59,812 bases of DNA from Omnitrophica WOR_2 bacterium GWF2_43_52 (GTDB lineage: Bacteria; Omnitrophota; Gorgyraeia; Gygaellales; UBA12090). Every line of letters starts with the position of its first letter. The first letter of the stretch is position 1. Shown one piece after another: positions 6,763 through 59,812 of the stretch. The translations under genes were made by a program, and so were the position numbers. The stretch is from the NCBI GenBank assembly GCA_001805445.1, contig MHGF01000036.1:96010-155821 (forward strand). The letters run 5' to 3'. Under the pieces are notes generated by a model. It searched no databases and was not told where the DNA came from. It saw only the letters and a list, made by a program, of their open reading frames with translations.

Positions 6763-6791
6763 GCGTAGCTTGCCAAAAGTGAGGTAGGAAC

Positions 6792-6913: not shown

Positions 6914-7303
6914 ATGGAAGAAAAAAATATTAAGGTTTTGGTTACCGATGATGAAGATGATTTCAGGCTGCTCATGAGCTTCTGGCTTCAATCCAAGGGG
7001 TATCAAGTCATTGCTGCCAGTAACGGCGAAGAAGCGATTAAATTGATACAGTCTGAGTCTCCGGATATTGTTTTTATGGATTTGAATATGCCGGTCATGG
7101 ACGGAGCGGAAACTATCAAAAAAGTGAGGGAATTTAATAAGGATATTCCTATTATTCTTATCAGCGCGTATTTGGATGACGTCAAAGTTAAGGATGCGAC
7201 GAGCCATGGTATTGCCGGGGTATTCTTTAAAGGTAAGGATTTTTCGCAAGGCCTGAGTTTACTTGAAACCGTATTACGGAAGCATAAAAACCTGCAAAAA
7301 TAA
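6914..7303 (+). CDS. Stand-alone response regulator receiver
   Basis: 129 aa. VTDDEDD and VFMDLNMPVMDG. No output domain. Downstream of the histidine kinase. Confidence 0.85.
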   Translation: MEEKNIKVLVTDDEDDFRLLMSFWLQSKGYQVIAASNGEEAIKLIQSESPDIVFMDLNMPVMDGAETIKKVREFNKDIPIILISAYLDDVKVKDATSHGIAGVFFKGKDFSQGLSLLETVLRKHKNLQK

Positions 7304-19092: not shown

Positions 19093-19253
19093 GTTTACAG
19101 TAAGTACAGTAAATACTATGAATACGGTATATTCAGAATATGCGGAATATCTGGTATATCCAGATTATACAGTAGTTTACATTGAAAAAGCCAATTTTAA
19201 ACACTAATTCCCACAAATAAAATGAGGTTTTTCAGCGATAACTACAGTAAATT

Positions 19254-19487
19254 ATGATGGCAGACGGCACTTTAATTACAATTCGCGAGATAGTCAAAAG
19301 GCATAACGTTACTTCTTTTACCGTTAACCATTATACGGATATCGGTCTTTTGAATGTGGTGAGCAAGAAGAAAAACGTCCGCTTGTATGATGCCTCAGAA
19401 GTCAAGGAACGGCTCAAGCGTATCGTGGAGCTCAAAGACCAGGGATATCCGCTGCGTTTAATCAGAATGGAGCTATTGAAAGGCTAA
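19254..19487 (+). CDS. Small MerR/excisionase-type helix-turn-helix protein
   Basis: 77 aa. ITIREIVKRHNVTSFTVNHYTDIGLL is an HTH pattern. First gene of the glycan locus. Confidence 0.5.
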   Translation: MMADGTLITIREIVKRHNVTSFTVNHYTDIGLLNVVSKKKNVRLYDASEVKERLKRIVELKDQGYPLRLIRMELLKG

Positions 19488-19491
19488 CCCC

Positions 19492-20352
19492 ATGCGTATA
19501 CCTATCTGTGCTGCTATAGGCATCATTGGAACACTTGTTTTCCATCCTCTTCATGGCTTTGGGCAGGGTTCAAGGGAAGAAGCCATCGATTACTATAAAA
19601 AAGGAAGGCACTTGTACGAACAGGGCAAGTATAAGGATGCCTCAGAGGCATTTGAAAGGGCCTTAGAAACGCAGGCTCAAGAAAAAAAAGAGCTCGTAAA
19701 AAAAGCGCGAGAGAAGGCCGAGACGCCAAACGTTACCCAGGGAATCCCTGAATATGTCGTAGGTGAGGAAGATGCCTTGTTTATTTCGGTATGGCAGAAT
19801 AAGGATCTTGATCAGGAAGTGGTGGTGCGCCCTGACGGGAAGATCTCTTTCCCGTTAATCGGGGATATCCAGGCAAGCGGCTTAACCATATCGGGTCTAG
19901 ATGACGTTATTACCAAGGCGCTTCAGGAATATATCAAATATCCCGATGTTTCCATAATCGTCAGAAAGCTTGGAGGCAAGAAAATCATTATGTTGGGAGA
20001 AGTAGTAGGCCCTGGAGTGCGTTCGGTTACGGGCAGAAGGACGATCCTTGAGGCAATTGCCTTATGTGGAGGTTTTACTAACCACGCGGTAACCTCAAGC
20101 GTAGTTCTTATCCGGGGAGGCTTTAGCAAACCCAAAGGAATGAGGCTTAACCTTGAGCGGGCCATAAGCAAGGCGGATATGAGCCAGAATGTCGTCCTTG
20201 AGCCGGAAGATATCGTGTATGTGCCTAAGAAATTTATCGCTAACGTGAATTATTTTGTTACTCAAATTATCGGCCCTATAGCCCAGGGAATGTATACCGC
20301 CGAAAAGCTTTCTACCTTTGGGCAGACGCCGGCGGCAGTTACCTCACAATAA
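19492..20352 (+). CDS. Polysaccharide export protein (Wza-like; Poly_export + SLBB)
   Basis: 286 aa. YVVGEEDALFISVWQNKDLDQEVVVRPDGKISFPLIGDIQASGLT, followed by an SLBB-like segment. Confidence 0.8.
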   Translation: MRIPICAAIGIIGTLVFHPLHGFGQGSREEAIDYYKKGRHLYEQGKYKDASEAFERALETQAQEKKELVKKAREKAETPNVTQGIPEYVVGEEDALFISVWQNKDLDQEVVVRPDGKISFPLIGDIQASGLTISGLDDVITKALQEYIKYPDVSIIVRKLGGKKIIMLGEVVGPGVRSVTGRRTILEAIALCGGFTNHAVTSSVVLIRGGFSKPKGMRLNLERAISKADMSQNVVLEPEDIVYVPKKFIANVNYFVTQIIGPIAQGMYTAEKLSTFGQTPAAVTSQ

Positions 20353-20369
20353 TCAAAGACAGGAGAGCA

Positions 20370-22298
20370 ATGAATTTACCGCAATACGAATTAAATATCA
20401 GCGACTACCTGCGTATTATCCGCAAGCGTAAAAGTATCATTATTGTTTCTTTTGTGCTGGTTACGGCTTTAAGCCTTTTTTACGTTTCGAAGCAGAAGGC
20501 GTGGTATGAGGCAGTAACAACAGTCAAGATAGCAGAGCGAAAAACAATCGCGGGGCTTCTTGCCGAATGGATTGCCTATAACCCCGGCAATATCATGGAA
20601 TCGGAGACCAAGCTTATCACGGGTTTTCCCGTAATGAAGAAAGTTGTGCTCCGTTTGAAAATGGTAGATGAAAATGCCGCGGACGAAGATATTTTTAATG
20701 CTATCGCGCAGGTACAGGGAGGTGTGAGCGCGAAAACATTTAAGGATACCAATATTATAGAGATTATCGCGCGAAGTGATAATGCCAAAAAGGCAATGGA
20801 ATTGGCAAATATGGTTGCCGGTGTGTATGTAGAGGAGAATTTGCTGGAGAAAAATAAACAGGCAAGCACAGCGCGTAAGTTTATTGAGGAGCAGTTGTCT
20901 TCGCTCGACGAGAAGTTGAGAAAGAATGAAGAAGGCCTCAAGACATTCGGCGAAGAAGTCAAAGGTATTCGGGGAAGTTCCGCTATACAGGAAAAATTAG
21001 TGCAGCTGGAATTTGAGTTGCAAAGCCTTTTGCAAAAATATACCCATAAGCATCCCGCGGTACGGCAGCTAAAGGATCAAATGAAGGAGTTAGAGGAACA
21101 GCAAAAAGGATTTTCCGGCAGGGAACTTGAATACGCGAGGCTTCAGAGGGAAGTAGAAGTAGGCCGTAAACTCTATGCCATGCTTAAGGAAAAGCTTGAA
21201 GAGGCGCGTATTAATGAAGCGCAAAGAGTGAGCGATGTTTCAGTTGTTGATCCCGCGGTAGTGCCTTCGGCACCGATGAATCCTGAAAAGAAGGCGGGGG
21301 TACTCTTGAGCGGCCTGTTAGGAATTATTTTGGGGATAATTCTCGCGTTTGTCTTTGAAAGTTTGGATACCTCTATAGGGACTATTGAAGATGTTGAACG
21401 CCTTACAAGCTTGCCTGTATTAGGGGTTGTCCCTTTGATCAGCAGTCAACTGCAGGAAAAAGAGGAGGAAGAAGCAAAAGGCATAGTTGAGAGATTTCTG
21501 CGTCATTTCTTTGCTTCTCATCAGCCAAAGGCGGATGAACGGTATGTGCGCCTCATTGTCCACCATGAGCCTCGTTCAGTAATTACTGAAAGCTACAGAA
21601 CCATACGTACTAATCTTAAGCTTAACCCTTCACTGCGGACTATTCTTGTTACCAGCGCGCAGCCTTCAGAAGGGAAAACAAGCGTGTTAACTAATTTAGG
21701 CTTAATGATTGCTCAAACTGGCGCAAAGATACTTTTAGTTTCAACAGACTTGCGGCGCCCTACGTTAGCCGAGACCTTTGGGATAAAAAGGGAGCCGGGA
21801 TTAAATGAAGTGGTGAATAAATCCGTGACCTTAGACGCAGCGATACGCGGTATCTCCGATATCATGCTGGGCGATCTGAGGTTAGACAAAATTATGGAAT
21901 CCCCGGGAATAGAAAATATTCATATTTTAGCTTCGGGAAGCATTCCTGTCAATCCTGCGGAACTCCTGATGTCAAAGGAAATGCAAAGCCTTATAGGAGA
22001 GCTAAAACGCAGATTTGACATTATCTTGATGGATTCCCCTCCTGTATTACCGATAAGCGACGCGAATCTTCTTGCTTCAAAAGTTGACGGGATAATCTTA
22101 GTCTATGAAGCCGGAAGAACAGCCCGCAGCGCGCTCTTGCGCGCCAAGATCCAGCTTGAGTCAGCGGGGGCAAAAATCTTGGGAGTAGTATTAAACCACA
22201 TAAGAGTAAGGACTGACCTGCTCATGCATCCTCCAGGCTACTATAAATATCGGTATCACGAGAAACCTTCAGAAAAAAACGGTAAGCCTGAAAAATAA
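20370..22298 (+). CDS. Chain-length determinant fused to BY-kinase (Wzc/GumC-like)
   Basis: 642 aa. Wzz-type N-terminus with TM segment, long coiled coil, second TM. Walker A SAQPSEGKTS, Walker B ILMDSPP, C-terminal Tyr cluster GYYKYRYH. Confidence 0.85.
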   Translation: MNLPQYELNISDYLRIIRKRKSIIIVSFVLVTALSLFYVSKQKAWYEAVTTVKIAERKTIAGLLAEWIAYNPGNIMESETKLITGFPVMKKVVLRLKMVDENAADEDIFNAIAQVQGGVSAKTFKDTNIIEIIARSDNAKKAMELANMVAGVYVEENLLEKNKQASTARKFIEEQLSSLDEKLRKNEEGLKTFGEEVKGIRGSSAIQEKLVQLEFELQSLLQKYTHKHPAVRQLKDQMKELEEQQKGFSGRELEYARLQREVEVGRKLYAMLKEKLEEARINEAQRVSDVSVVDPAVVPSAPMNPEKKAGVLLSGLLGIILGIILAFVFESLDTSIGTIEDVERLTSLPVLGVVPLISSQLQEKEEEEAKGIVERFLRHFFASHQPKADERYVRLIVHHEPRSVITESYRTIRTNLKLNPSLRTILVTSAQPSEGKTSVLTNLGLMIAQTGAKILLVSTDLRRPTLAETFGIKREPGLNEVVNKSVTLDAAIRGISDIMLGDLRLDKIMESPGIENIHILASGSIPVNPAELLMSKEMQSLIGELKRRFDIILMDSPPVLPISDANLLASKVDGIILVYEAGRTARSALLRAKIQLESAGAKILGVVLNHIRVRTDLLMHPPGYYKYRYHEKPSEKNGKPEK

Positions 22299-22351
22299 TA
22301 GAGACCAGCGGGAAATTAGTTCATTCTAAAAGCATTACCGAGGAAATACCG

Positions 22352-23638
22352 TTGCCTACATATTATCTTGTTATAGCTATTCTTGCCCTTATCATCTTTT
22401 TCATTTCTCTGATTAAAACCGACGTCGCCCTGATTATTTTAATTCTGGCGATGCTTTTTTCTCCGGAGTTTAGGGCAGGCGATATCCCTGGCCGCGCTGT
22501 GGTATTGCGTATTGATGATGTGTTTCTGCTGGTGATATTCATTGGCTGGTTGGCTAGGATGGCGATTAATAAGGAGTTTGGGCTTTTGAGGGCTACTCCC
22601 TTAAATCTGCCAATTCTTACGTATACCTCTATTTGCATTGTGGCGACGCTTATGGGAGCACTGCGGGGCCAAATAAGGATGACCCAGGGTATTTTTTATC
22701 TTTTGAAGTACCTTGAGTATTTTTTTCTTTTTTTTATGGTGGTTAATAATATTCAGAGCAAAAAACAGGCGAAGCTTTTTGTCTATTGCTTATTCACAAC
22801 CTGTTTTTTAGTTTGTCTTTATGCCTGGATTGCTAAGGGAAGTATAGAAGGAAGGGTCACCGCGCCATTTGAGGGTAAAGAAGGTGGAGAGCCAAATACC
22901 TTTGCCGGATATTTGATATTAATGATGGCGTTGATGATTAGTTTTATTATTCATACGCAATCTCAAAAACAGAGGATACTCTTTCTTGCTCTTTTAGGGT
23001 TTGCTTTTGTTCCGTTTATCTTGACTCTTTCCCGAAGCGGATGGTTATCCTTTTTTCCCATGTATGTAACATTCCTGGTGATACCGCATCGCTACCGATT
23101 GTTAATGTTTGCGGGTTTGCTTATGCTTATTGCGCTTATGCCGGTTGTGGCGCCGGAACGCGTGCGCTTACGGGTAATGGAAACGTTTGCTCCGGAAAAA
23201 ACATATAAAGTTTTGGGTAAAGATTTGAATATCGCGGAGTCAGCGGCAGCGCGTATTGATTCCTGGCAGATTGGATTTCAGCGTTGGGCGCAAAGGCCGA
23301 TTCTTGGTTTTGGAATTCCCGTAGGAACAGTGATTGACAATCAGTATACGCGCGTATTGGCGGAGACGGGAATTATTGGGATTTTGGCATTTTTTTGGAT
23401 TATCAAAGCCCTTTTTGCCTCAGCCCGGAGGCTTTGTGTGGTTATGAAGCACGATACCCTGAGCCAGGCTCTTGGCATTGGGTTTATCGCTGGTTTAGTT
23501 GGGCTTTTGGTATTATCGAGTTCAGCGGCAGTGTTTATCCTTATACGGATAATGGAGCCGTTTTGGTTTTTGGCCGCGATAATAACGGTTCTGCCTGAGA
23601 TAGCGCAAGAGGCGGATAACGCGCACACCTATGGATGA
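22352..23638 (+). CDS. O-antigen ligase/polymerase-like membrane protein (Wzy_C type)
   Basis: 428 aa, polytopic, TTG start per the track. LTLSRSGWLSF motif typical of the family. Confidence 0.6.
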   Translation: MPTYYLVIAILALIIFFISLIKTDVALIILILAMLFSPEFRAGDIPGRAVVLRIDDVFLLVIFIGWLARMAINKEFGLLRATPLNLPILTYTSICIVATLMGALRGQIRMTQGIFYLLKYLEYFFLFFMVVNNIQSKKQAKLFVYCLFTTCFLVCLYAWIAKGSIEGRVTAPFEGKEGGEPNTFAGYLILMMALMISFIIHTQSQKQRILFLALLGFAFVPFILTLSRSGWLSFFPMYVTFLVIPHRYRLLMFAGLLMLIALMPVVAPERVRLRVMETFAPEKTYKVLGKDLNIAESAAARIDSWQIGFQRWAQRPILGFGIPVGTVIDNQYTRVLAETGIIGILAFFWIIKALFASARRLCVVMKHDTLSQALGIGFIAGLVGLLVLSSSAAVFILIRIMEPFWFLAAIITVLPEIAQEADNAHTYG

Positions 23639-25202
23639 AAATAGTTTATCGCAGAAGATAATAAGGAATACTTTCTTTAATATTATAGGGCGAGCGTGGG
23701 GAATGTTGGTTTCTTTTTTGTTAACACCGTATATTATCCGTTCTCTCGGTTTAGAAAGATTTGGTATCTGGGCTGTGGTAACTATACTCACCACCTATTA
23801 CGGTTTATTGGATTTTGGCTTAGGCGCGTCTTTTATAAAATATATCAGCGAATTCCATGCAAAAAATGAAAGGGATAAAATAAATCAGGTTGTCAATACA
23901 GGATTCATTCTTTATTCATTTTTAGCCATAGCAATCATTGGTGTATCAGTGTTCTCAAGGCGCTTCTTGCTTGATTCTTTCAATATCCCTTCTTATCTGC
24001 AAAGTGAAGCTTGGTTTGTTCTATGCACCGGGATTATCATATTTGTTGCCTCAAATGCCTTTGGGCCATTTGTTTCTCTCCAGGGTGGATTACAAAGGAT
24101 GGATATATCCAATAGAATAGCAATAGGTATTTCATTGCCGTATATTGTAGGCACATTATTTTTCTTGAAGAATGGCTATGGATTGCCCGGATTAATGGTT
24201 AACAATTGCCTTATTTTTGTTTTACAGAGCGTCATTAACATCGCCGTTGCCTTTAAGATTTTTCCCGGCTTAAGGCTTCATTCCTGCCACTTCAGCAAGG
24301 ATATAGCTAAAAAATTGTTAGGATTTGGTTTTAGAATGCAGCTCGCCAGGCTTTCAGGCGTAGTGACAGCTCAGACTGATAAGATTTTGATTGCCTGCTT
24401 TTTATCGCTTAGTTTGGTTACGTTTTACCAGCTCGGAAGCAGTATTGTCTTTTACGCTCTTTCTATCTCCGGTTTGTTTGTTTCGGCATTAATGCCGGCC
24501 TTTTCTGAAATTGAAGCCAGGGGTGAACGGCTGAAACTTATTGACGCGTATTTATTGACTACAAAGTATTTATCATTTCTTGTGGTGCCGTTATTTATAC
24601 TCCTGATACTATCGCCATTTTATATAATGACGGCCTGGATGGGCCGAGGATATGAAAAATCGGGTGTCATTATTCAAATCTTGGCGGCAGGCTATCTGGC
24701 CAATACGATTGCGCAAATTGCTTCTTCCGTATGCGCGGCTATTGATAGGCCTCAGTTGTTGGCGGCGGCTTCCACGATGATTATTGTGCTTAACATCGGT
24801 TTGAGCCTAATTTTTGTAAACATTTTTGGATTTTTGGGAGTTGCGTGGGGAACAATGATTGCTGTTAATCTTGGGACTATGTACTTCTTCTTTCAAGTAA
24901 ATAAGGCGTTAGGGATTTCTCAGAAGAAATTGATTAAAGTGACGCTCCCCTATCTTGCGACGGGTATCTTTTGCGCGTTGGCAGTCTACAGCGTGGATAT
25001 CGCCGCGCATAAGATATTTCTGACATCCTCGCGGCCTTTGGCTTTAGGGGCATTTACTGCGAGGAGCGTACTATTTCTCATCGCGTATGTGGCTTGCGCG
25101 CGGTATCTAAAATTACTCGATGAAAATGATATGCTTCTCTTTAAACAGAAGTTTCCCTTTGCCAATCGCGTACTATCGAAAATATGCAAGGTGAAAATTT
25201 AA
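23631..25202 (+). CDS. Oligosaccharide flippase (Wzx/MOP superfamily)
   Basis: 523 aa, about 14 TM segments. N-terminus IIRNTFFNIIGRAWGMLVSFLLTPYIIRSLGLERFGIW. Confidence 0.8.
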   Translation: MDENSLSQKIIRNTFFNIIGRAWGMLVSFLLTPYIIRSLGLERFGIWAVVTILTTYYGLLDFGLGASFIKYISEFHAKNERDKINQVVNTGFILYSFLAIAIIGVSVFSRRFLLDSFNIPSYLQSEAWFVLCTGIIIFVASNAFGPFVSLQGGLQRMDISNRIAIGISLPYIVGTLFFLKNGYGLPGLMVNNCLIFVLQSVINIAVAFKIFPGLRLHSCHFSKDIAKKLLGFGFRMQLARLSGVVTAQTDKILIACFLSLSLVTFYQLGSSIVFYALSISGLFVSALMPAFSEIEARGERLKLIDAYLLTTKYLSFLVVPLFILLILSPFYIMTAWMGRGYEKSGVIIQILAAGYLANTIAQIASSVCAAIDRPQLLAAASTMIIVLNIGLSLIFVNIFGFLGVAWGTMIAVNLGTMYFFFQVNKALGISQKKLIKVTLPYLATGIFCALAVYSVDIAAHKIFLTSSRPLALGAFTARSVLFLIAYVACARYLKLLDENDMLLFKQKFPFANRVLSKICKVKI

Positions 25203-48780: not shown

Positions 48781-48828
48781 TTGACTTATGTTCATCCGCT
48801 ACAACGCTTAGCGGATTCCATAAGTCAA
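48781..48828 (+). promoter_or_regulatory. Leader hairpin upstream of ExeA paralog 2
   Basis: TTGACTTATG (48781-90) pairs with CATAAGTCAA (48819-28), and ATCCGCTA with TAGCGGAT. Ends 24 nt before ATG 48853. Preceded by the 9-bp stem ATCCCGCCT (48732-40) with AGGCGGGAT (48761-69). Confidence 0.5.
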
Positions 48829-48852
48829 GTGCTCATTGAGGAGATAGCCGTT

Positions 48853-49668
48853 ATGTATGAGGAATATTGGGGTTTAAAAGAAGCGCCTTTTGAGAATACC
48901 CCTGACCCGCGGTTTCTGTATTATTCTAAAGAGCATGAAGAAGCCCTTTCCCGGCTGATGTACGTACTGGAAGGAAGGAAAGGCGCCGCTATGCTTACGG
49001 GTGTCTTTGGCTGCGGCAAGACCGTGCTCGCGAGGGCATTTTTAAGCCGTATCAACCGCAATATCTATCCGGTCGCGATGATTACCAATCCGTATCTGAA
49101 ATTGGTGGAATTTTTGCGTTCTATCGCGCGGCAAATGGGCGCGGAAGGGCTTCCTGAGAAATTGACTGAGATGTCCGCGGACCATTTCCTCCAGGTAATT
49201 GAGGAAATGCTTAATAATAATGCCAAGGACGGCCGGCATACCGTTATTATAATCGATGAAGCCCATGTGATTACCGATAACGATATCTTTGAGGAGTTGC
49301 GGCTGCTTTTAAACTTTCAATTGGAGGATAAGTTTTTGATTACTTTGATTCTCATGGGCCAGCCGGAACTTACTGAAAGGATCAAAAAGAATAAGCAGTT
49401 TTCTCAAAGAATCGCTATCGGCTACAGCCTTGGCCCATTGAATGAGGCGGAGTCCCGGCTCTATATCGCGCACCGTCTTCGGGTTGCCGGCAGCACTCAT
49501 GAAATTTTTTCACCGGAGGCGCTAAAACCAATAGTAGAGAATTCCGGAGGTATCCCGCGAAGAATAAACCAGATTTGCGATATGGCATTAGCGGTTGGTT
49601 TTGGCACTGAGGCAAAACTTGTTACCGCGAAGATTATTGCGGAAGCTGTTGAGAGTATAGGGATGTAA
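48853..49668 (+). CDS. ExeA/GspA/MshM-like AAA ATPase, paralog 2
   Basis: Start moved from TTG 48781 to ATG 48853 because MYEEYWGLKEAPFENTPDPRF aligns with the N-terminus of paralog 1. Walker A GVFGCGKT, Walker B IIIDEAH, GGIPRRINQICD. Confidence 0.8.
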   Translation: MYEEYWGLKEAPFENTPDPRFLYYSKEHEEALSRLMYVLEGRKGAAMLTGVFGCGKTVLARAFLSRINRNIYPVAMITNPYLKLVEFLRSIARQMGAEGLPEKLTEMSADHFLQVIEEMLNNNAKDGRHTVIIIDEAHVITDNDIFEELRLLLNFQLEDKFLITLILMGQPELTERIKKNKQFSQRIAIGYSLGPLNEAESRLYIAHRLRVAGSTHEIFSPEALKPIVENSGGIPRRINQICDMALAVGFGTEAKLVTAKIIAEAVESIGM

Positions 49669-52852: not shown

Positions 52853-53725
52853 ATGAGTTATTTCAAGATATTAGGATTTCAAAAGGAACCCTTCTCGACA
52901 AGCCCTGATCCCGAATTTTTTTATTTGTCAAAAGAGCATGAGGTCTCACTTAACAATATCCTCATAGAGCTTCGCCTTAAAAGGGGGCTTTCGGTTATTT
53001 TGGGTGATGTGGGTACGGGCAAGACCAGCCTCTCCCGTAAGCTTATTCAGGAGTTAAAGCAAAGGAATGATTTTATCTTTCACATGATTTTGGACCCATC
53101 ATTTGAAAATGAGTATTCTCTCCTTGTCTCATTGGCAAAAAATTTTGAGATTGCCGGTAATAGAATAGATACCAGCCTTTCGGTTGTTGACCTCAAAGAG
53201 TCGTTAGAACGTTTTCTTTTTCAAAAAGGCGTCAGTGAAGAAAAGACTGTGGTGTTGGTAATTGACGAGGCGCAGAAATTAAATGACGCTTCCCTTGAGG
53301 CGCTGAGGGTCCTTCTGAATTATGAGACTAATGAGTTTAAGCTTTTACAGCTGGTACTCTTAGGGCAGCTTGAGCTGCATTCAAAGATACTGTCAATACC
53401 GAATTTTTTTGACCGCATCAGTTTTAAATATACGCTGAATCCCTTAGGTTTTGAAGAAACCAAGGAGATGATAGAATTCCGTATGCGCCAGGCAGGGTAT
53501 ACCTCAAGCATGTATTTATTTCTCGATGAAGCGATACGGGAAATCCATCAGTATACGCGGGGTTATCCCCGGCAGATTATGATGCTCTGTCACCGGGCAT
53601 TAAAGGCGTTAGTCTTAAAGAATAAATTCGCCGTTGATCTGCGGTTAGTCCGCGAACTTATCGAAGATGAGGTAAGGACAGGCTGGCACAGAAAAGACCT
53701 GCTCTTGCAAAAAAATAGTTATTAA
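52853..53725 (+). CDS. ExeA/GspA/MshM-like AAA ATPase, paralog 3
   Basis: 290 aa. EPFSTSPDPEFFYLSKEHE, Walker A GDVGTGKT, Walker B VLVIDEAQ, RGYPRQIMMLCH. Confidence 0.75.
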   Translation: MSYFKILGFQKEPFSTSPDPEFFYLSKEHEVSLNNILIELRLKRGLSVILGDVGTGKTSLSRKLIQELKQRNDFIFHMILDPSFENEYSLLVSLAKNFEIAGNRIDTSLSVVDLKESLERFLFQKGVSEEKTVVLVIDEAQKLNDASLEALRVLLNYETNEFKLLQLVLLGQLELHSKILSIPNFFDRISFKYTLNPLGFEETKEMIEFRMRQAGYTSSMYLFLDEAIREIHQYTRGYPRQIMMLCHRALKALVLKNKFAVDLRLVRELIEDEVRTGWHRKDLLLQKNSY

Positions 53726-53727
53726 CC

Positions 53728-55245
53728 ATGGCAACTCTAAATTCTTTCGGTGTTAGGAAAACTAACCGCGCGATATTTTTTACTGTCATACTCTGGATTG
53801 TGGCGCTGGGGGCGGGTTTCTATTTTTACGCCAGGAAAGAGAGAAGTAATCTTGTACGGGAATTGGAGCTTGTAACCAAACAGAAAAACGCGCTCAATTA
53901 TCAGCGCGATGAGGTGATGAAAGCTGTCGCGCCTTTAAAAAAAGAGATAGAGCATCTGCAGACAGTTATTTTAAAAGAAAAACGCGTTCATGAATCTCAG
54001 CCAACGCAGCCGGCTGGCACTCCCCCCGCGGCTTTAAAAATAGAGAAGAGTGCTTCAGAGGAAAAAGTCAATAAGCCGCTTCCCGAGAGTAATCCCACAG
54101 CCAAGGATAGGATTTTAGATACCGAAAAAGGGTTAACCCGCCTGAAGGAGTATGTGAAAAGCCTGGAGGAGGAGAAGGCTTCTTTAAAGGAAAAGGCCTA
54201 TCACCTTAAACTCAAGCTTGATGAAAAAGAAAGAGAAGTAGGCATATTGAGTAGCGATAATACAGGACTCAAGGATAGTTTTCCCAAGGTTCTCCAGGCT
54301 AAAAATAAGCTGGAGGCAGAGTTTGCCACGGCTGCCGATAGCCTCGAAAAGGTAAAAAATGAGCTTTCCCAAAAGGAGCAGCAGGTTGCTTCATTAGGCA
54401 AGGCAAAACAGGTTTTAGAAAATAAGGTTGATGAATTAAATGATAAGCTGGCGGTGTTTTCTAATACCACGACGGATTTAGAAAGGCAGCTTGCGCATTA
54501 CCGGCAAGAAAAGTCTTTTTTGGAGAAAGAGCTGCTTAAGGCAAAAGAAGAGCTCTTGAAGCAAAATGATTCTGCTGAGCCTTGGGCCAAAAAAAATGCC
54601 GGGCTTACCGAGGCTTTAGAGGTTAAAGAAAAACAGGTGAAAAGTATTTCAGAAGAACTTTCGCAGGTAAAAGAATCAAAAAGGAATTTGGAAGTAGAGC
54701 TTGGTGAATTGAAGCTTGCCAAGATTGCCAATGAAAATCAGATCAGCCAGTTGAACGCGCGGGTCAGTGAATCAACGCTTTCCTATGACAATCTTAAAAG
54801 TACGGTGAGCCAGTTGTCTAACCTTCTGACCAAAAAAGAGGTTGAAATAAGCGAGAGACAGAGAGAAATAGCTCTTATGAAGGAACAGCTTGACAATCTT
54901 GTGAAGGAAAAAAACACGTTACTGGCAGCCTTGGATGAGAAAGAAAAGGCGGCAAACAGCTTGAATGCTTCGTTAAGCCGTATGGGTTCTCAGGTTGTTA
55001 TTTTGCAAGAGCAATTGGCCGCGCCCAACAGGCTGCAATCAAAAACCTTGGAGCAGCTTGACCAATTGACTACCGTAAGCAACTTTCTTCAGGAAAGGAT
55101 TTCGGGAATATCCAAGGAATTAGATACCATCCATACGCAGGCTGACCTGGATAAGCAAAAAGCAGAGGACCTGCGTAAAAAGGTTGAACTTACCTTAGAT
55201 ATTGATAGAGAGGATGGAGATGCCTCGCCTTTTGATAGTAAGTAA
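53728..55245 (+). CDS. Membrane-anchored long coiled-coil protein
   Basis: 505 aa. One N-terminal TM segment (AIFFTVILWIVALGAGFYFYA), then an uninterrupted heptad-rich E/K/L/Q sequence. Starts 3 nt after the ExeA-like gene. Confidence 0.7.
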   Translation: MATLNSFGVRKTNRAIFFTVILWIVALGAGFYFYARKERSNLVRELELVTKQKNALNYQRDEVMKAVAPLKKEIEHLQTVILKEKRVHESQPTQPAGTPPAALKIEKSASEEKVNKPLPESNPTAKDRILDTEKGLTRLKEYVKSLEEEKASLKEKAYHLKLKLDEKEREVGILSSDNTGLKDSFPKVLQAKNKLEAEFATAADSLEKVKNELSQKEQQVASLGKAKQVLENKVDELNDKLAVFSNTTTDLERQLAHYRQEKSFLEKELLKAKEELLKQNDSAEPWAKKNAGLTEALEVKEKQVKSISEELSQVKESKRNLEVELGELKLAKIANENQISQLNARVSESTLSYDNLKSTVSQLSNLLTKKEVEISERQREIALMKEQLDNLVKEKNTLLAALDEKEKAANSLNASLSRMGSQVVILQEQLAAPNRLQSKTLEQLDQLTTVSNFLQERISGISKELDTIHTQADLDKQKAEDLRKKVELTLDIDREDGDASPFDSK

Positions 55246-55246
55246 A

Positions 55247-55271
55247 CCCCGTTAGAAAGGACGGGGCTTTT
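55247..55271 (+). terminator. Rho-independent terminator-like hairpin CCCCGT-8 nt-ACGGGG followed by CTTTT
   Basis: Read directly, immediately after the stop at 55245. Confidence 0.6.
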
Positions 55272-55314
55272 ACACCGCTCTTTCTATAAGGAATTAAGCT
55301 TTCATATCTTTCAT

Positions 55315-55340
55315 CCCCGCCATAAATGGCGGGGCTTTCT
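55315..55340 (+). terminator. Second terminator-like hairpin CCCCGCCA-TAAA-TGGCGGGG followed by CTTTCT
   Basis: Read directly. 8-bp perfect stem. Confidence 0.55.
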
Positions 55341-55451
55341 GACGGGGTAAAAAAAAGAATGTTTGCCAGCAGGGTTAAAACGAAGTGTTGAGTGTATTCT
55401 GTTAACCAAGAGTCCGGAGTATTCTTCAAGGATTGACTTTATAGATGCAGT

Positions 55452-56138
55452 ATGTTGCCAAAGAAGCCGCTTACCCCAGAGAAACAATTATTGAAGCTGA
55501 TAGAAGATCCGGTTGCTAAAGATACTGTATCTTTAGCTGCTCTTAAGCATCATGGCTTAAGCTTTTTTTCCATTCCCGCGTGGATAGCGAGAGTTGCTTA
55601 CCTTAACGGCAGGTTTCTTAAATGGCTGAAAGATTCAAAGCCTCGCCGCATTGATAGTAAAGCCATTAATATTATTTTGTTTGGTTTCGTGTGTTTCTTA
55701 GGGGTTAGTTTCATAATCACTATAAGTGTTTCAATCCTAAACCAGAAGAAAATCCCTGAGCTAACACTGCAGGCATCAAGCGCCATAAAGCAACTGGAGG
55801 GTTTTGGAGAAAAAACAGCACGCGGAAAATCCGTGGCGTATTATTTGGAAAAGGTATCGGCACGAGATATTTTTAAGATGGGGCCCAAAAAAACCGAAAC
55901 TGCCCTTGTGCCGGAGAAAACCGGTGGTTCTCTCGCAAAGATTCTTGAGGCAACAGCTCATTTAAAACTCGTAGGGATTTCATGGTCAAGCGATCCTGAC
56001 GCGATGATAGAAGACACGAAAGCGCTCAAGACTTTTTTTGTAAAGCGGGGGCAGATGATAGATAATGTCAAGGTCCAGGCGATTTTTAAGGATAAAGTGG
56101 TTTTGAGTTATGCCGGAGAAGAGATCGAACTAAAATGA
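55452..56138 (+). CDS. GspC/PilP-like secretin-associated protein
   Basis: 228 aa with one TM segment (IILFGFVCFLGVSFIITISVSIL). The C-terminal LKLVGISWSSDPDAMIEDTKALKTFFVKRGQMIDNVKVQAIFKDKVVLSYAGEEIEL resembles the HR/PilP beta-domain. ATGA overlap with the secretin gene. Confidence 0.45.
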   Translation: MLPKKPLTPEKQLLKLIEDPVAKDTVSLAALKHHGLSFFSIPAWIARVAYLNGRFLKWLKDSKPRRIDSKAINIILFGFVCFLGVSFIITISVSILNQKKIPELTLQASSAIKQLEGFGEKTARGKSVAYYLEKVSARDIFKMGPKKTETALVPEKTGGSLAKILEATAHLKLVGISWSSDPDAMIEDTKALKTFFVKRGQMIDNVKVQAIFKDKVVLSYAGEEIELK

Positions 56139-58141
56139 AAGAATACAGGCGGGGGTTCGTTTTTTACTTTTTATTAAGCTGTTTGGCGGCTGGCCGAATA
56201 GAGGCGGAGGATACGCTTATCCAGACAGCTCAGGCGACAGTCGTCAGTAAACAGCCTATGGCTGCAGCCGGCCCCCTGCAGGGTAAAATCAGTTTAGACC
56301 TGCGCAATATTGATGCCGTTGATGCCATTAAATTCCTGGCGATGAAAGCGGGATTGAATATCGTTGTCACCAAGAGTGTTGCCGGCAGGGTGAGCCTGAC
56401 GGTTGAAAATGTCAATGTGAAGGATGTCTTTGACATCATGTTGCGGTTAAATAATCTCGCGTATGACACCAAAGGCGATATCTACAGCATTATGACTGAA
56501 GACGAATATAGAGTGCTCTACGGCAAGAAATTTTCCGATACCCGCCATGTGAAGGTATTTCGCCTTAATTACGCGATTCCCGAACAGGCATTTAATCTTT
56601 TGGACGCGGTAAAAAGCGGGATCGGCCGTTTGCTGGTTGATGCGGAATCAGGCACGGTGATGATGATGGATACGCAAGAAAAGATTGAGGAGGCAGAAGG
56701 TATACTGGGAAATTTGGAGCAGAAAAATACCGTTAAGATAATAGGCTTGAAATACGCTAAGGCTAAGGATGTTGAGGAGCAGCTTAAGGCACAGCTTGAC
56801 ATAAAAAAAGTGGGGACCATAAAATCAGATGAGCGTACCAATCAGATAATTGTCCAGACGCTTCCTGAAAGGATGAAAAATATCGAAGAGCTGGTAAAAG
56901 GGCTGGATAAAAAGACGCGGGCGGTTTTGGTAGATACCAAGATACTCAAGATTAAATTTACCAATCAGTTAGACAGCGGTATTGAATGGGAAGGGCTTTT
57001 CAGCTTGGCCCAAACCCATGGCTTGACGTATTTAGGCTCGTATCCTTTCAGCCTTATTCAGAAATCAACCGCCGCCTGGCAATCGAGGCAGCAGGTCCTC
57101 AGTTCCCTGGGTGATAGTGTCGGCTCGTATCCTTTTAGCGGGACCGCGGTAGATAGTGTTGTGGGTTCAAAAGTAAAGCCCGGAGAGGCGATGCATGTGG
57201 GAGTTATTAATGGTAAGCGCGATTTTGATGTATTGATAAAATATCTGCAGACATTTGGGAAAACCAAAATCCTCGCTAATCCGACGTTAACCGTGGTTGA
57301 TAATCATGAGGCAAAGGTGCATGTAGGGGAGCGCCGGGCCTATGTTACCACGACAACGACCGCGGGGACCACGACCAAGACTACTGCTGAGGAAGTAACC
57401 TATGTTGACATAGGGGTGCAGCTTACCATTACGCCGACTATTAATGAGGATGGGTATGTCACGATGAAAGTAAAGCCTGAGATAAGCAGTGTCATAGGAA
57501 ATGTGGAGAGCTCCGAAGGCAATCTCATTCCTATTATTGATACGACGACTGCCGAAACTATGGTGATGACTAAAGACGGCTCTACGGTAATTATCGGAGG
57601 CCTGGGAAAGGAAGAAAAGAGCGAAAGCTCACGGCAGGTCCCGGTATTGGGGGATATCCCTTTTCTAGGGAATTTATTCCGGTCAAAAACCCAGCTTACT
57701 GAACGCACCGAATTATTGATTTTGCTCACACCGATTATTTATGACGGGGATAAGCTTATTACGCCGCAGGATAAGGATTCGGAAAAATTCGGGGTTAAAG
57801 AGTTTAAGAAATTTGATGTGTTTAAAAAAGAGTATCCTATAGAAATCCCTGAGCCGATTAAGCCCATGCGCCAGGATGCGAGTAGTGATAATCAACCGGA
57901 AGAAAGCCCGGAAGAAGGTAAGGAAGATGGCGGCTTGAATCAGGCGGTAACTATTAAAGAAAATGATGGGGAAGCAGCCTCCGGGCACTTAGTTCCCAAG
58001 GGGCTTAAGGTTTACGGTTTGGATGAGGTTAAGGTTGACCATATAAGCTCTGAGGCTTTGGTGGCGGCTCAGGATACTAACGATGCCATCCCTCAAGACT
58101 TATCCCTGAAGGGGTTTCGGGCATATAGCGATCCTCGTTAA
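56135..58141 (+). CDS. Secretin (PilQ/GspD/MshL family) with an acidic C-terminal extension
   Basis: 668 aa with a signal peptide. N0-like ISLDLRNIDAVDAIKFLAMKAGLNIVV, two Secretin_N-like repeats, and a secretin core ILANPTLTVVDNHEAKVHVG...VPVLGDIPFLGNLFRSKT...ELLILLTPII. Confidence 0.9.
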   Translation: MKEYRRGFVFYFLLSCLAAGRIEAEDTLIQTAQATVVSKQPMAAAGPLQGKISLDLRNIDAVDAIKFLAMKAGLNIVVTKSVAGRVSLTVENVNVKDVFDIMLRLNNLAYDTKGDIYSIMTEDEYRVLYGKKFSDTRHVKVFRLNYAIPEQAFNLLDAVKSGIGRLLVDAESGTVMMMDTQEKIEEAEGILGNLEQKNTVKIIGLKYAKAKDVEEQLKAQLDIKKVGTIKSDERTNQIIVQTLPERMKNIEELVKGLDKKTRAVLVDTKILKIKFTNQLDSGIEWEGLFSLAQTHGLTYLGSYPFSLIQKSTAAWQSRQQVLSSLGDSVGSYPFSGTAVDSVVGSKVKPGEAMHVGVINGKRDFDVLIKYLQTFGKTKILANPTLTVVDNHEAKVHVGERRAYVTTTTTAGTTTKTTAEEVTYVDIGVQLTITPTINEDGYVTMKVKPEISSVIGNVESSEGNLIPIIDTTTAETMVMTKDGSTVIIGGLGKEEKSESSRQVPVLGDIPFLGNLFRSKTQLTERTELLILLTPIIYDGDKLITPQDKDSEKFGVKEFKKFDVFKKEYPIEIPEPIKPMRQDASSDNQPEESPEEGKEDGGLNQAVTIKENDGEAASGHLVPKGLKVYGLDEVKVDHISSEALVAAQDTNDAIPQDLSLKGFRAYSDPR

Positions 58142-58188
58142 GAAGCAGGACGCTAAGTTCAACAAGAGAGCGGGAATCAGACAAGGTA

Positions 58189-59812
58189 TGAAAAAAAAGT
58201 TTTTTCATCATACGGCGTGGGTTGTACTTTTAATTACCGGTATTCCTTCTTTTGCTTTTTGTGAAGAGGCTATTTTTGATGACGAGTTAAGCAGTTTTGT
58301 CAAAGATTTTAATACCTTAAAAGAAGAATTGGTAACCACGAGGCAGGCATACCAGAAATTACAGGAAAACTATAATGCCACGTTAAAGGATCGCGACACA
58401 ACGCTTATTCAGTTGCGGCAATTACAAAAAGAAAAAGCCGCGGCGGAATTGCAGCTTAAGGAACTGCAGATAAAAATGCTCACCCTTGACTCTAAAGGCA
58501 GGGAACTTTCAGGGTCGCTAGAAACTAAAGAAAAGTCGTTGGGGGAAATAACCCAGTACTATCAGCAGGCACTAACTAAAAGCAAAGAATATGAAGCAAA
58601 GGTCACCGGGTTACAGAATGAAAAAACAGCCTTGCAGGCTGAAGTAAATAAACTTAAGAGCCAGCAGGCAAGCTGGGAGGGCCAGAGTAAAGAGCTTACG
58701 GGTTCACTGCAGCAATTGACCGGCAGTATTCAGGATAAAGAGAAATTGATCGCGGAACTAAAGCAGTCACAGGCAGAGTTATTAAAGAAGCAGCATGAGG
58801 CTCAGCTAAAACTACAGGATTATGAAATTATCCGTAACAAACTGCAAGGGCTTGAGAATGAAAAAGCGTCATTGCAGATAGAGGTAAGTAAGTTTAAAAG
58901 CCAGCAGGCAAGCTGGGAGGGCCAGAGTAAGGAGCTTACGGGTTCTCTGCAGCAATTGACCGGCAGTATTCAGGATAAAGAGAAATTGATAGCTGAACTA
59001 CGGCAGTCACAGGCAGAGCTGTTAAAGAAGCAACAGGATGCCCAGGGAAAGATCCAAGATTTTGAGGTAAAATTTACTTCGTTAGAGCAGCTTCAGAAAG
59101 ATAAAGCTACTGTAGAATCACAGCTTGACGTTGTCGAGCAGAAGGCTAAGGAATTGAAAGAAACCTTGGAGGTAAGAGAAAAAGCTTCACAGGAGTTAAA
59201 TAAGCAATACCAGGAAATAACCAGCCGCCTGAAAGAGTATGAAGGAAAGTCCGCGCAGCTTGAGAATGAAAAAGCGTCATTGCAGATAGAGGTAAATAAG
59301 TTTAAGAGCCAGCAGTCAAGCTGGCAGGGCCAGAGTAAAGAGCTTACGGGTTCTCTGCAGCAATTGACCGGCAATATTCAGGACAAAGAGAAAGTGATCG
59401 CGGAGCTGCGGCAGTCACAGGCAGAGCTGTTAAAAAAGCAGCAAGAGGCCCAGGGAAAGATCCAAGATTTTGAGGCAAGGTTTACTTTGTTAGAGCAGCT
59501 GCAGAAAGATAAAGCCGCTGTAGAATCACAGCTTGACGATGTCGTACAGAAGGCCAAAGAATTGAAAGAAACCTTGGAGGTAAGAGAAAAAGCTTCACAG
59601 GAGTTAAATAAGCAATACCAGGAAATAACTAGCCGGGCAAAAGAATATGAAATAAAGTTAGCGCAGCTTGAGAATGAAAAGGCGTCATTACAGCTAGAGG
59701 TGAATAAGTTTAAGAGCCAGCAGGCAAGCTGGCAGGGCCAGAGTAAGGAGCTTACGGGTTCTCTGCAGCAATTGACCGGGAGTATTCAGGATAAAGAGAA
59801 AGTGATCGCGGA
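58189..59812 (+). CDS. Exported coiled-coil repeat protein, 3'-truncated by the window end (not in the supplied track)
   Basis: ATG at 58189, open to the window end (541 codons translated by hand). Signal-like MKKKFFHHTAWVVLLITGIPSFAFC, then Q/E/K/L-rich coiled coil with repeated LENEKASLQIEVNKFKSQQASWEGQSKELTGSLQQLTGSIQDKEK. Confidence 0.78.
58611..59812 (+). repeat. In-frame tandem DNA repeats: one 240-bp unit, then 408-bp units (58851, 59259, 59667...)
   Basis: The landmark AGCCAGCAGGCAAGCTGG recurs at 58659, 58899, 59307 and 59715 (spacing 240, 408, 408). Units differ by scattered substitutions only. Confidence 0.9.

What the first reader, a model, noticed from the sequence alone, without database searches (positions are those of the whole stretch)
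52853..59812. Secretin module with ExeA-like ATPase and two long coiled-coil proteins, but no pilus or T2SS core genes in view
The order is: ExeA paralog 3, a TM coiled-coil protein (505 aa), two terminator-like hairpins, a GspC/PilP-like protein, a secretin (668 aa), then an exported coiled-coil repeat protein of more than 541 aa.

In Aeromonas the ExeA-ExeB pair assembles the T2SS secretin, and in MSHA pili MshM accompanies the secretin MshL. Here the ATPase lacks a peptidoglycan-binding domain, and the partner position is occupied by a coiled-coil protein.

The secretin carries an acidic C-terminal extension of about 130 aa. It contains two similar short motifs, PKGLKVYGLDE and LKGFRAYSDPR. 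No GspE/PilB ATPase, platform protein or (pseudo)pilin lies within the visible 7 kb.

This may be a minimal or divergent outer-membrane channel system whose cargo or tether is the repeat protein.
Basis: partly seen in the sequence, partly recalled or inferred. Interest (0 to 1): 0.65.

Follow-up and report, generated by a model that had tools for sequence, protein, structure and literature searches.

The report
Pilus-free double-secretin module of Omnitrophota
This is a gene cluster found across the uncultured phylum Omnitrophota that encodes two outer-membrane secretin channels and their own helper proteins but no pilus or secretion motor, and it sits beside sugar-polymer export genes, so it may be a new way of using secretins.

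Summary
The genome is an Omnitrophota bacterium from groundwater.

Sequence beyond the window (L001) does not bring canonical T2SS or T4P genes. It brings the rest of the coiled-coil protein (1350 aa, ending in a TPR domain), a second secretin (53% identical), a shorter coiled-coil-TPR protein, a small exported protein and an STT3 oligosaccharyltransferase.

The module is conserved in order in 37 Omnitrophota loci. No GspE/PilB, GspF/PilC or pilin gene lies within about 10 kb.

- The ATPase's partner is the 228-aa protein, not the 505-aa coiled-coil protein. Its C-terminal domain has the GspC/GspB/PilP HR fold. This makes a GspA/GspB-like pair.
- The long coiled-coil protein is a paralogue of the second secretin's TPR partner. 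It is probably not cargo.

The secretin tails are disordered and carry motifs specific to each paralogue. These motifs track the matching TPR clades.

The module is linked to Wza, an HD-GYP protein and a two-component system. My best reading is a filament-gene-free secretin gate serving a surface-polymer pathway. It could instead be the outer-membrane part of a machine encoded elsewhere.

Verdict: new variant of a known kind; interest 0.55.

The parts
52853..53725 (+). GspA/ExeA/MshM-like cytoplasmic AAA+ ATPase (290 aa). It has no TM segment and no peptidoglycan-binding domain.
   Evidence: AAA_22 E=1e-20. TIGR03015 174.6 bits, below the 324.5 cut-off. Orthologues are 65-79% identical in 33 of 37 loci; the other four are cut off upstream.
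53728..55245 (+). Inner-membrane-anchored coiled-coil protein (505 aa) with a conserved C-terminal motif, QKAEDLRKKVELTL.
   Evidence: One TM helix at residues 13-31; only coiled-coil family hits. Proteins with the same architecture and C-terminal motif follow the HD-GYP gene in other clades.
55247..55334 (+). Two GC-rich hairpins (55247-55266 and 55315-55334), each followed by CUUU. They may act as partial terminators between the coiled-coil gene and the HR-protein gene.
   Evidence: -12.1 and -16.1 kcal/mol, z about -3.2. The terminator scan did not call them.
55452..56138 (+). GspB/GspC-like bitopic protein (228 aa). It has a conserved cytoplasmic N-terminus (TPEKQLLKLIE), a TM helix at about residues 69-98 and a C-terminal HR domain (161-228).
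   Evidence: Alignment A1. AlphaFold2 pLDDT is about 88 for the HR domain. The top eight Foldseek hits are GspC-HR, PilP, LspC and PulC; 3oss_C has TM 0.81 and rmsd 1.0 A. The only PDB profile hit is 3oss_C. The gene overlaps the secretin start by 4 nt in 35 of 36 loci.
56135..58141 (+). Secretin A (668 aa): signal peptide, N0/STN, two ring domains, secretin barrel and a disordered acidic tail.
   Evidence: Pfam. NCBIfam scores are all below cut-off: GspD 243, PilQ 239, MshL 180. AlphaFold2 architecture. Foldseek ranks T2SS secretins first.
57998..58126 (+). Two A-type tail motifs: KGLKVY (57998-58015) and KGFRAY (58109-58126).
   Evidence: KG[FLMI][KR]x[YV] occurs 22 times in A tails and 0 times in B tails, against 0.05 expected from shuffles. 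It usually sits 7-10 residues from the C-terminus. The pattern was defined after looking at these sequences.
58188..59812 (+). N-terminal 541 aa of the exported coiled-coil-TPR partner A. The full protein is 1350 aa in L001 and ends in a TPR domain.
   Evidence: The TPR end is 40% identical to that of the protein after secretin B (E=5e-37).
58850..59812 (+). Tandem repeat of 408 nt (136 aa) inside the coiled-coil gene, 2.5 copies at 90% identity, continuing past the window end.
   Evidence: Assemblies differ in the length of this gene: 1060 aa, 1350 aa, or split in two.
7439..8284 (+). ATPase paralogue 1 (281 aa). In other genomes it lies inside the module, next to the HD-GYP gene.
8281..9429 (+). 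Degenerate HD-GYP-type protein (382 aa). Orthologues inside the module in other genomes are intact HD_5 proteins.
   Evidence: The window copy has no Pfam hit. Orthologues hit HD_5 at E=1e-19 to 1e-27. The consensus keeps the HD and GSGYP motifs.
5368..7303 (+). PAS histidine kinase and response regulator. In other genomes their orthologues lie directly upstream of the module.
   Evidence: 41-61% identity in L017, L022, L026, L027.
19234..25202 (+). MerR, Wza, Wzc, Wzy and Wzx flippase. A Wza orthologue follows the module in other genomes.
   Evidence: Wza lies within about 4 kb of the HD-GYP gene in 6 of 6 informative loci of one clade.
48781..49668 (+). ATPase paralogue 2 (295 aa), 52% identical to paralogue 1.

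Best explanation
The finding is the first half of a conserved, Omnitrophota-wide envelope module built around two paralogous secretins and lacking filament genes.

Shown:
- A cytoplasmic GspA/ExeA-like AAA+ ATPase is encoded next to, often overlapping, a bitopic inner-membrane protein whose periplasmic end has the HR fold of GspB/GspC/PilP.
- That gene overlaps secretin A by 4 nt.
- Each secretin gene is followed by an exported coiled-coil protein ending in a TPR domain.
- The [secretin + coiled-coil-TPR] pair was duplicated once, early.
- Each secretin paralogue has a disordered C-terminal tail with its own short motif, and the motif type tracks the TPR clade.
- The module also carries a small exported protein, an HD-GYP protein and a TM coiled-coil protein.
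- It is linked to a PAS kinase and response regulator and to Wza.

Inferred mechanism:
- The HR domain caps the secretin N0 ring and ties it to the inner membrane, as OutB/GspB does.
- Its conserved cytoplasmic peptide couples it to the ATPase, as in GspA-GspB.
- The TPR domains read the secretin tail motifs and act like a pilotin or scaffold.
- The assembled gates serve export of a surface polymer or glycoconjugate made by the linked glycan genes, under c-di-GMP and two-component control.

The long coiled-coil protein is a structural partner of secretin A, not its cargo.
For: Conservation:
- 37 loci share the same gene order.
- The HR gene is present in 36 of 37 loci and overlaps the secretin by 4 nt in 35 of 36.
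- The ATPase is present in 33 of 37 loci; the other four are cut off upstream.

HR fold: Foldseek finds GspC-HR 3oss_C at TM 0.81 and rmsd 1.0 A, and the top eight hits are all HR/PilP domains.

GspA-GspB precedent: archetypes with a GspA lacking the periplasmic part, next to a DUF3391-type gene, are described in PMC9239104.

Duplication:
- The secretins are 53% identical and the TPR ends 40% identical.
- Secretin A and B copies fall in separate clades for most lineages; the TPR domains split cleanly into A and B clades.
- Tail motifs are paralogue-specific: 22 against 0, and 23 against 4.
- Single-secretin modules have a B-type tail and a B-type TPR.

No filament genes:
- Pfam-annotated flanks of 7 genomes show none.
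- A regex scan of the loci held (L001-L040) found none.
- A separate PilMN / PilOP-like / PilQ-like cluster exists in Omnitrophota.

Polymer link:
- The window module sits in a locus of more than 60 kb with Wza, Wzc, Wzy, Wzx and glycosyltransferases, and STT3 follows it.
- Wza follows the module in 6 of 6 informative loci of another clade.
- The HD-GYP protein is part of the module.
Against: - No substrate is identified, and there is no expression or experimental data; no RNA runs hold this sequence.
- Wza is already an outer-membrane polysaccharide channel, so a secretin is not obviously needed.
- In some genomes the flanks are housekeeping genes (L042) or giant ORFs, so the glycan linkage is not universal.
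- GspA/GspB in Proteobacteria are secretin assembly factors, not motors. This fits equally well with secretins that serve a machine encoded elsewhere.
- The TPR-tail and ATPase-HR contacts are inferred, not modelled.
- The tail motif patterns were defined after inspection of these same sequences.
- The secretin tree for the window's own clade is not cleanly A versus B.
Confidence: 0.45

Rival explanations
1. The module is only the outer-membrane half (secretins plus assembly and anchoring factors) of a type IV filament machine (T4aP, Tad or T2SS-like) whose ATPase, platform and pilins are encoded elsewhere in the genome.
For: - GspA/GspB and TPR pilotins are assembly factors in known systems (PMC9239104).
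- The TPR domains give weak hits to PilW and Tgl.
- Omnitrophota commonly encode T4aP and Tad (PMC10066038).
- MSHA loci also hold a secretin, an ExeA-like ATPase and a TPR protein together (my own knowledge).
- In L032 a PilN-domain gene and a short secretin lie just upstream of the module.
Against: - No filament gene lies within about 10 kb in 37 loci.
- Omnitrophota have a separate cluster of a PilM/N-like gene, a GspM/HR-like gene and a PilQ-like secretin in a housekeeping context, so the T4aP-type alignment complex has its own secretin.
- The Tad-like loci described upstream of giant genes include their own gspD-type gene (10.1101/2023.11.21.568195).
- Two paralogous secretins with private partners are kept across the phylum.
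Confidence: 0.3
2. The secretin rings and coiled-coil-TPR proteins are mainly structural. They would form an abundant envelope scaffold or a tether between inner and outer membrane in these very small cells, like the secretin-based envelope complex of Deinococcus radiodurans, rather than a dedicated export route.
For: - The exported coiled-coil proteins vary widely in length (335-1628 aa) and are inner-membrane-anchored or periplasmic.
- No cargo is evident.
- There is a Deinococcus precedent (PMC10828601, abstract seen).
- The HR protein would tie the ring to the inner membrane.
Against: - A dedicated, highly conserved AAA+ ATPase, an HD-GYP protein and a two-component system suggest a regulated activity.
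- The linkage to Wza and glycan genes suggests transport.
Confidence: 0.12
3. The long coiled-coil protein is the cargo: a surface fibre pushed out through secretin A.
For: - It has a cleavable signal peptide.
- If fully extended, its length (up to about 1250 aa of coiled coil) would far exceed the width of the periplasm.
- Its repeat number varies between assemblies.
Against: - It is a paralogue of the short partner of secretin B and keeps the same C-terminal TPR domain.
- In L015 and L043 the protein at this position is only 335-379 aa.
- Single-secretin modules lack it.
- No motor for pushing a folded fibre is evident.
Confidence: 0.08

Closest known systems
GspA-GspB (ExeA-ExeB / OutB) secretin assembly and anchoring pair of type II secretion, especially the Alteromonas-type archetype (PMC9239104)
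   Same: - An AAA+ ATPase gene lies next to a bitopic protein whose periplasmic HR domain binds the secretin N0 domain.
- In the Alteromonas archetype GspA lacks the periplasmic peptidoglycan-binding part, and a DUF3391-type gene sits beside gspB. Here an HD-GYP-type gene belongs to the module.
   Different: - There is no gspC-N operon and no pseudopilus genes.
- The ATPase has no TM segment at all.
- The HR protein has a distinctive conserved cytoplasmic peptide.
- There are two secretins.
- The phylum is non-proteobacterial.
MSHA pilus mshL-mshM-mshN block (secretin, ExeA-like ATPase, TPR protein)
   Same: The same three protein types are encoded together (my own knowledge). MshL is the third-best NCBIfam match for the secretin.
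   Different: - MshL scores 180 bits, below the 250 cut-off.
- There are no mshE, mshG or pilin genes.
- The TPR proteins carry long coiled coils.
- The secretin-partner pair is duplicated.
Secretin pilotins and docking of the secretin C-terminal S-domain (GspS/AspS, PilF/PilW/Tgl, TadD)
   Same: An accessory protein is encoded beside the secretin, and the secretin has a C-terminal extension with a conserved motif. The TPR domains give weak PilW and Tgl hits.
   Different: - The partners are not lipoproteins; they have type I signal peptides or a TM anchor.
- They carry coiled coils of 200-1250 aa.
- Binding has not been tested.
Secretin-dependent slime nozzles of cyanobacteria and Myxococcus (PMC12475490)
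   Same: A secretin is implicated in export of a non-protein polymer. Here the module lies beside polysaccharide genes.
   Different: - Those secretins belong to full T4P or T2SS loci.
- Here no filament genes are linked.
- No experiment exists for this module.
XrtA/PEP-CTERM-associated ATPase (TIGR03015) of exopolysaccharide loci
   Same: It is the best curated match for all three ATPase paralogues, and the context is an exopolysaccharide locus.
   Different: - Scores of 175-204 bits fall below the 324.5 cut-off.
- No exosortase was seen in the annotated window.
- Those loci are not known to hold secretins.

Membership tests
Secretin superfamily | C-terminal secretin barrel domain (PF00263) with Secretin_N ring domains and an N0/STN domain | tested here: met
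   PF00263 E=5e-48, two Secretin_N domains, STN. The AlphaFold2 model shows N0, two ring domains and the barrel. Foldseek hits secretins at E=1e-25.
T2SS secretin GspD (TIGR02517) | Score above the curated cut-off | tested here: not met
   243 bits against a cut-off of 351.
Type II secretion system | GspE ATPase, GspF platform, GspL/M and pseudopilins encoded with the secretin | tested here: not met
   None in the window, in 10 kb downstream, or in the Pfam-annotated flanks of L041-L046. A regex scan of loci L001-L040 found none. Genes elsewhere in the genome could not be examined.
T4aP secretin PilQ (TIGR02515) | Score above the cut-off and pilMNOP next to the gene | tested here: not met
   238.8 bits against a cut-off of 284. 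No pilMNOP genes are adjacent except in L032. A separate PilMN / PilOP-like / secretin cluster exists.
MSHA secretin MshL (TIGR02519) | Score above the cut-off | tested here: not met
   179.8 bits against a cut-off of 250.
GspA/ExeA | AAA+ ATPase domain encoded next to a GspB-type HR protein | tested here: met
   AAA_22 with intact Walker A and B motifs. The gene is adjacent to or overlaps the HR gene in 22 of 37 loci; a TM coiled-coil gene lies between them in the window's clade.
GspA/ExeA | TM segment and periplasmic peptidoglycan-binding domain (PF01471) | tested here: not met
   The protein is 290 aa with no TM segment and no PF01471 hit. GspA archetypes that lack this part are known (PMC9239104).
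GspB/GspC/PilP HR-domain proteins | HR beta-domain fold | tested here: met
   Foldseek: 3oss_C TM 0.81, rmsd 1.0 A, 30% identity; the top eight hits are all HR domains.
GspB/GspC/PilP HR-domain proteins | Pfam T2SSC or T2SSB above the gathering score | tested here: not met
   T2SSC 19.4 against 27, and T2SSB 17.0 against 28.4, for the window protein. Many orthologues do carry a precomputed PF11356 hit.
GspB/GspC/PilP HR-domain proteins | Binding to the secretin N0 domain | not testable with these tools
   This needs complex prediction or a binding assay.
XrtA/PEP-CTERM-associated ATPase (TIGR03015) | Score above the cut-off and an exosortase locus | tested here: not met
   174.6 bits (ATPase 3) and 203.5 bits (ATPase 2) against a cut-off of 324.5. 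No exosortase appears in the annotated genes.
HD-GYP c-di-GMP phosphodiesterases | HD_5 domain with HD and GYP motifs | tested here: inconclusive
   Orthologues in L029 and L037 hit HD_5 at E=1e-28 and 2e-19, and the consensus keeps HD and GSGYP. The window copy (8281-9429) has lost the motifs and has no Pfam hit.
TPR pilotins (PilW/PilF/Tgl) | Lipoprotein signal and a family score above the cut-off | tested here: not met
   PilW scores 28-32 bits against a cut-off of 154. The proteins have type I signal peptides or a TM anchor and no conserved lipobox.

The most novel reading that the evidence does not exclude
This is a new kind of secretin-based export machine that needs no pilus or pseudopilus. 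A GspA-like AAA+ ATPase would act through a GspB-like HR protein on one or two secretin rings held by coiled-coil-TPR struts. The machine would move an exopolysaccharide or glycoconjugate, or the long coiled-coil fibre itself, out of very small Omnitrophota cells under c-di-GMP control.
Probability: 0.2. Interest if true: 0.85.

Novelty: new variant of a known kind. Interest (0 to 1): 0.55.

Why it matters
Secretins are known as outer-membrane gates of filament-driven machines (T2SS, T4P, T3SS, Tad) and of filamentous phage. A secretin module kept across a whole phylum with no filament genes would widen that picture. This module has a GspA/GspB-type pair, duplicated secretins and private coiled-coil-TPR partners.

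It would add an independent case to the recent claim that secretins can serve polymer export. It would also give a concrete envelope structure to look for in Omnitrophota, an uncultured phylum whose cell surface is thought to be central to its host-dependent lifestyle.

The paralogue-specific tail motifs and matching TPR clades form a testable recognition code for secretin assembly.

Tried and rejected
- RNA evidence: only DNA metagenomes from groundwater and soil hold the sequence, so operon structure and expression could not be checked.
- PDB sequence searches with the ATPase and with the window's HD-GYP-like protein gave nothing useful.
- The small exported protein (164 aa, L001 19457-19951) has no Pfam or NCBIfam hit.
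- The terminator scan did not call the two hairpins. Direct folding showed them.
- Lipoprotein secretin ('LLSC' in secretin A): rejected, because the Cys is not conserved and orthologues have type I signal peptides.
- A possible link to the T2SS-like locus reported upstream of Omnitrophota giant genes: that locus is described with gspE, gspF and rcpC, which this module lacks. I treat it as a different system, but I could not see the figure.
- Literature searches for Omnitrophota or Omnitrophica with 'secretin' found no description of this module.
- The regex scan for GspE-type Walker A motifs and prepilin N-termini had no positive control, so its negative result rests mainly on the Pfam-annotated loci.

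Full report
**1. The observation**

All five ORFs are present at the stated coordinates.
- 52853-53725 encodes a 290-aa AAA_22 ATPase with intact Walker A and B motifs. It has no TM segment and no peptidoglycan-binding domain.
- 53728-55245 encodes a 505-aa protein with one N-terminal TM helix followed by coiled coil.
- 55452-56138 encodes a 228-aa protein with weak T2SSC and T2SSB hits.
- 56135-58141 encodes a 668-aa secretin with STN/N0, two Secretin_N domains and the secretin barrel.
- 58188 to the window end encodes an exported coiled-coil repeat protein.

The two hairpins between the coiled-coil gene and the 228-aa gene are real: -12.1 and -16.1 kcal/mol, z about -3.2. Their T-tails are weak, and the generic terminator scan missed them.

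The secretin tail is 135 aa, net acidic, and predicted disordered.

**2. Organism and what lies downstream**

The same secretin is encoded on contigs of 'Omnitrophica WOR_2 bacterium RIFCSPHIGHO2_02_FULL_45_21' and related groundwater assemblies. Close homologues are named Omnitrophota or Omnitrophica.

A longer contig (L001, GCA_003451255.1) shows what follows the window:
- The coiled-coil protein is 1350 aa.
- A second secretin follows (586-631 aa depending on the start codon, 53% identical to the first).
- Next comes a 384-aa TM / coiled-coil / TPR protein.
- Then a 164-aa exported protein with no family hit.
- Then an 853-aa STT3-type oligosaccharyltransferase and a GT2 glycosyltransferase.

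No GspE/PilB, GspF/PilC or pilin gene appears.

**3. Conservation as a unit**

One scan of species-representative genomes, plus look-ups of homologues, gave 37 distinct Omnitrophota loci. The shared order is:

[PAS kinase, response regulator, MerR] - ATPase - HR protein - secretin A - coiled-coil-TPR A - secretin B - coiled-coil-TPR B - small exported protein - (second ATPase paralogue) - HD-GYP protein - TM coiled-coil protein - Wza.

- The HR gene overlaps the secretin start by 4 nt in 35 of 36 loci.
- The ATPase gene overlaps the HR gene by 42-48 nt in 15 loci and abuts it in 7 more.
- Three loci with enough flanking sequence have a single secretin followed directly by the short TPR protein (L018, L027, L045).

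In the window genome the same parts are all present but spread over the whole window:
- kinase and regulator at 5368-7303
- ATPase 1 and the HD-GYP-type gene at 7439-9429
- Wza and Wzc at 19492-22298

About 30 kb of Wzy, flippase, glycosyltransferase and methyltransferase genes separate these from the secretin part.

**4. What the parts are**

*The 228-aa protein.* It has an invariant cytoplasmic peptide (TPEKQLLKLIE), a TM helix and a C-terminal beta-domain.
- The AlphaFold2 model of that domain has pLDDT of about 88.
- It matches the GspC HR domain crystallised with GspD N0-N1 (3oss_C: TM 0.81, rmsd 1.0 A, 30% identity).
- The next hits are PilP, LspC and PulC HR domains.
- The only PDB profile hit is the same chain.

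GspB/OutB has this same fold, binds the secretin N0 domain, and is usually encoded next to GspA (PMC9239104). Archetypes are known in which GspA lacks its periplasmic part and a DUF3391-type gene sits beside gspB (same paper). The ATPase and the 228-aa protein are therefore best read as a GspA/GspB-like pair.

*The 505-aa coiled-coil protein.* It sits between the pair only in the window's clade. In other clades a protein with the same architecture and the same C-terminal motif follows the HD-GYP gene.

*The long coiled-coil protein.* It ends in a two-repeat TPR domain that is 40% identical (E=5e-37) to the C-terminus of the protein after secretin B. The same architecture holds in distant loci. 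Its length ranges from 335 to 1628 aa.

A tree of the TPR domains splits cleanly into an 'after secretin A' clade and an 'after secretin B' clade. The single-secretin modules fall in the B clade. Most of the secretin tree shows the same A/B split, but the window's own clade is less clean. The unit [secretin + coiled-coil-TPR] was thus duplicated early.

*The secretins.* All secretins, TPR partners and small proteins have signal peptides, and none has a conserved lipobox. Secretin A has N0, two ring domains, the barrel, a short helix and a disordered tail.

The tails carry motifs specific to each paralogue:
- KG[FLMI][KR]x[YV] occurs 22 times in A tails and never in B tails. It usually sits 7-10 residues from the end.
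- Kx[YF][RQKE]x[YE] occurs 23 times in B tails and 4 times in A tails.
- Shuffles give 0.05-0.25 occurrences.
- These patterns were written after seeing the sequences, so the counts are descriptive.

Single-secretin modules have both a B-type tail and a B-type TPR. Motif type and TPR clade travel together. This is why I infer that the TPR domains read the tails, as pilotins read secretin S-domains. That contact has not been tested.

*The HD-GYP protein.* The gene paired with ATPase 1 is an HD_5 (HD-GYP) protein in other genomes. The window copy has lost the HD and GYP motifs and has no Pfam hit.

**5. Family membership**

The secretins belong to the secretin superfamily, but they pass no curated subfamily threshold: GspD 243 against 351, PilQ 239 against 284, MshL 180 against 250. 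PDB sequence hits and Foldseek rank T2SS secretins slightly ahead of PilQ and InvG.

The ATPases are closest to TIGR03015, the ATPase of PEP-CTERM exopolysaccharide loci, but score below its cut-off.

**6. Does a filament machine use these secretins from elsewhere?**

I could not scan whole genomes. Two points argue against the idea.

First, Omnitrophota carry a separate three-gene cluster in a conserved housekeeping context:
- a PilM/PilN-like protein
- a GspM-plus-HR protein
- a secretin that scores best as PilQ

The T4aP-type alignment complex therefore has its own secretin. In L032 that cluster happens to lie next to the module, so one genome at least has both.

Second, the T2SS/Tad-like loci reported next to Omnitrophota giant genes are described with their own gspD, gspE, gspF and rcpC.

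Published surveys of Omnitrophota discuss T4aP and Tad but not this module. The rival cannot be excluded, and I give it 0.3.

**7. Likely function**

The linkage points to the cell surface.
- The window module sits inside a Wzx/Wzy-type polysaccharide locus and is followed by an STT3 oligosaccharyltransferase.
- Wza lies within about 4 kb of the HD-GYP gene in all six loci of another clade that extend far enough.
- An HD-GYP protein, a PAS kinase with response regulator, and a MerR gene accompany it.
- Secretins have recently been shown to be needed for slime secretion in cyanobacteria and Myxococcus (PMC12475490).

I therefore favour a regulated outer-membrane gate for a surface polymer or glycoconjugate. 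In this model it is assembled and anchored by the GspA/GspB-like pair and the coiled-coil-TPR partners.

The weak points:
- No cargo is known.
- Wza is already a channel.
- The linkage is not universal.
- There are no expression data.

**8. Verdict**

The module is a new variant of a known kind. It is built from known parts (secretin, GspA/GspB-like pair, TPR accessory). The arrangement is a phylum-wide one without filament genes and with a duplicated secretin-partner pair, and I found no description of it in the library searched.

Noticed in passing
window 9400-19034: A RiPP-like cluster sits between the HD-GYP-type gene and MerR/Wza. It holds two PqqD-like genes, radical SAM enzymes (10521-12017, 13872-15005), a GNAT/S24 protein, a TPR protein, a ScmC-like protein, an NTP_transf_5 protein and an ABC exporter on the minus strand (17441-19034). 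Homologues of some of these genes also follow Wza in L029 and L038.
   Followed up: partly
window 8281-9429: The window's copy of the module's HD-GYP protein has lost the HD and GYP motifs that all 11 aligned orthologues keep. It may now be a c-di-GMP sensor or an inactive remnant.
   Followed up: partly
L043 17947-21926; L044 18930-21926; L045 19078-20693: In three genomes very large ORFs (1405+, 4476 and 2241+ aa) begin a few genes after the module. Giant Omnitrophota genes have been reported next to secretion-like loci, but the published description (gspE, gspF, rcpC) does not match this module.
   Followed up: partly
L001 20000-22007; L002 13643-16508: An 853-aa STT3/PglB-type oligosaccharyltransferase and a GT2 glycosyltransferase follow the module in the window genome. 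This hints at N-linked protein glycosylation in this bacterium. I did not test whether the coiled-coil or secretin proteins are targets.
   Followed up: no
L047 10001-14176; L032 3950-6900: A separate conserved Omnitrophota cluster holds a 474-486-aa PilM/PilN-like protein, a 291-331-aa protein with GspM-like and HR-like parts, and a PilQ-like secretin of 494-561 aa. In L047 and one other contig it lies in a housekeeping context. In L032 it lies beside the module instead, and its secretin ORF there is only 273 aa, possibly truncated.
   Followed up: partly
window 58850-59812; L001 12716-13733; L002 6555-9737; L004 6558-10687: The coiled-coil gene differs between assemblies of the same organism (1350 aa, 1060 aa, or split in two). 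The difference is probably repeat collapse around the 408-nt tandem repeat, but real copy-number variation is possible.
   Followed up: partly
window 19234-19467: A small MerR-family gene precedes the module ATPase in L041, L042, L043 and L046. In the window genome it precedes Wza instead. This fits the idea that the module and the Wza locus are one rearranged unit.
   Followed up: partly
L040 7119-14649: The only hit outside the Omnitrophota lineage came from Pseudomonas piscis. By ORF order and size it looks like pilMNOPQ, aroK and aroB followed by a 528-aa ExeA-like ATPase; I named these genes from memory, not from a tool result. A GspA-like ATPase may therefore lie near a T4aP secretin there too.
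   Followed up: no
L041 19228-20316; L043 15789-16796; L044 17055-18026; L046 18543-19526: In the window's clade an extra gene of 323-362 aa lies between the short TPR protein and the small exported protein. The L041 copy gives a weak SurA_N_3 hit, so it may be a periplasmic chaperone. The window genome (L001) lacks this gene.
   Followed up: no
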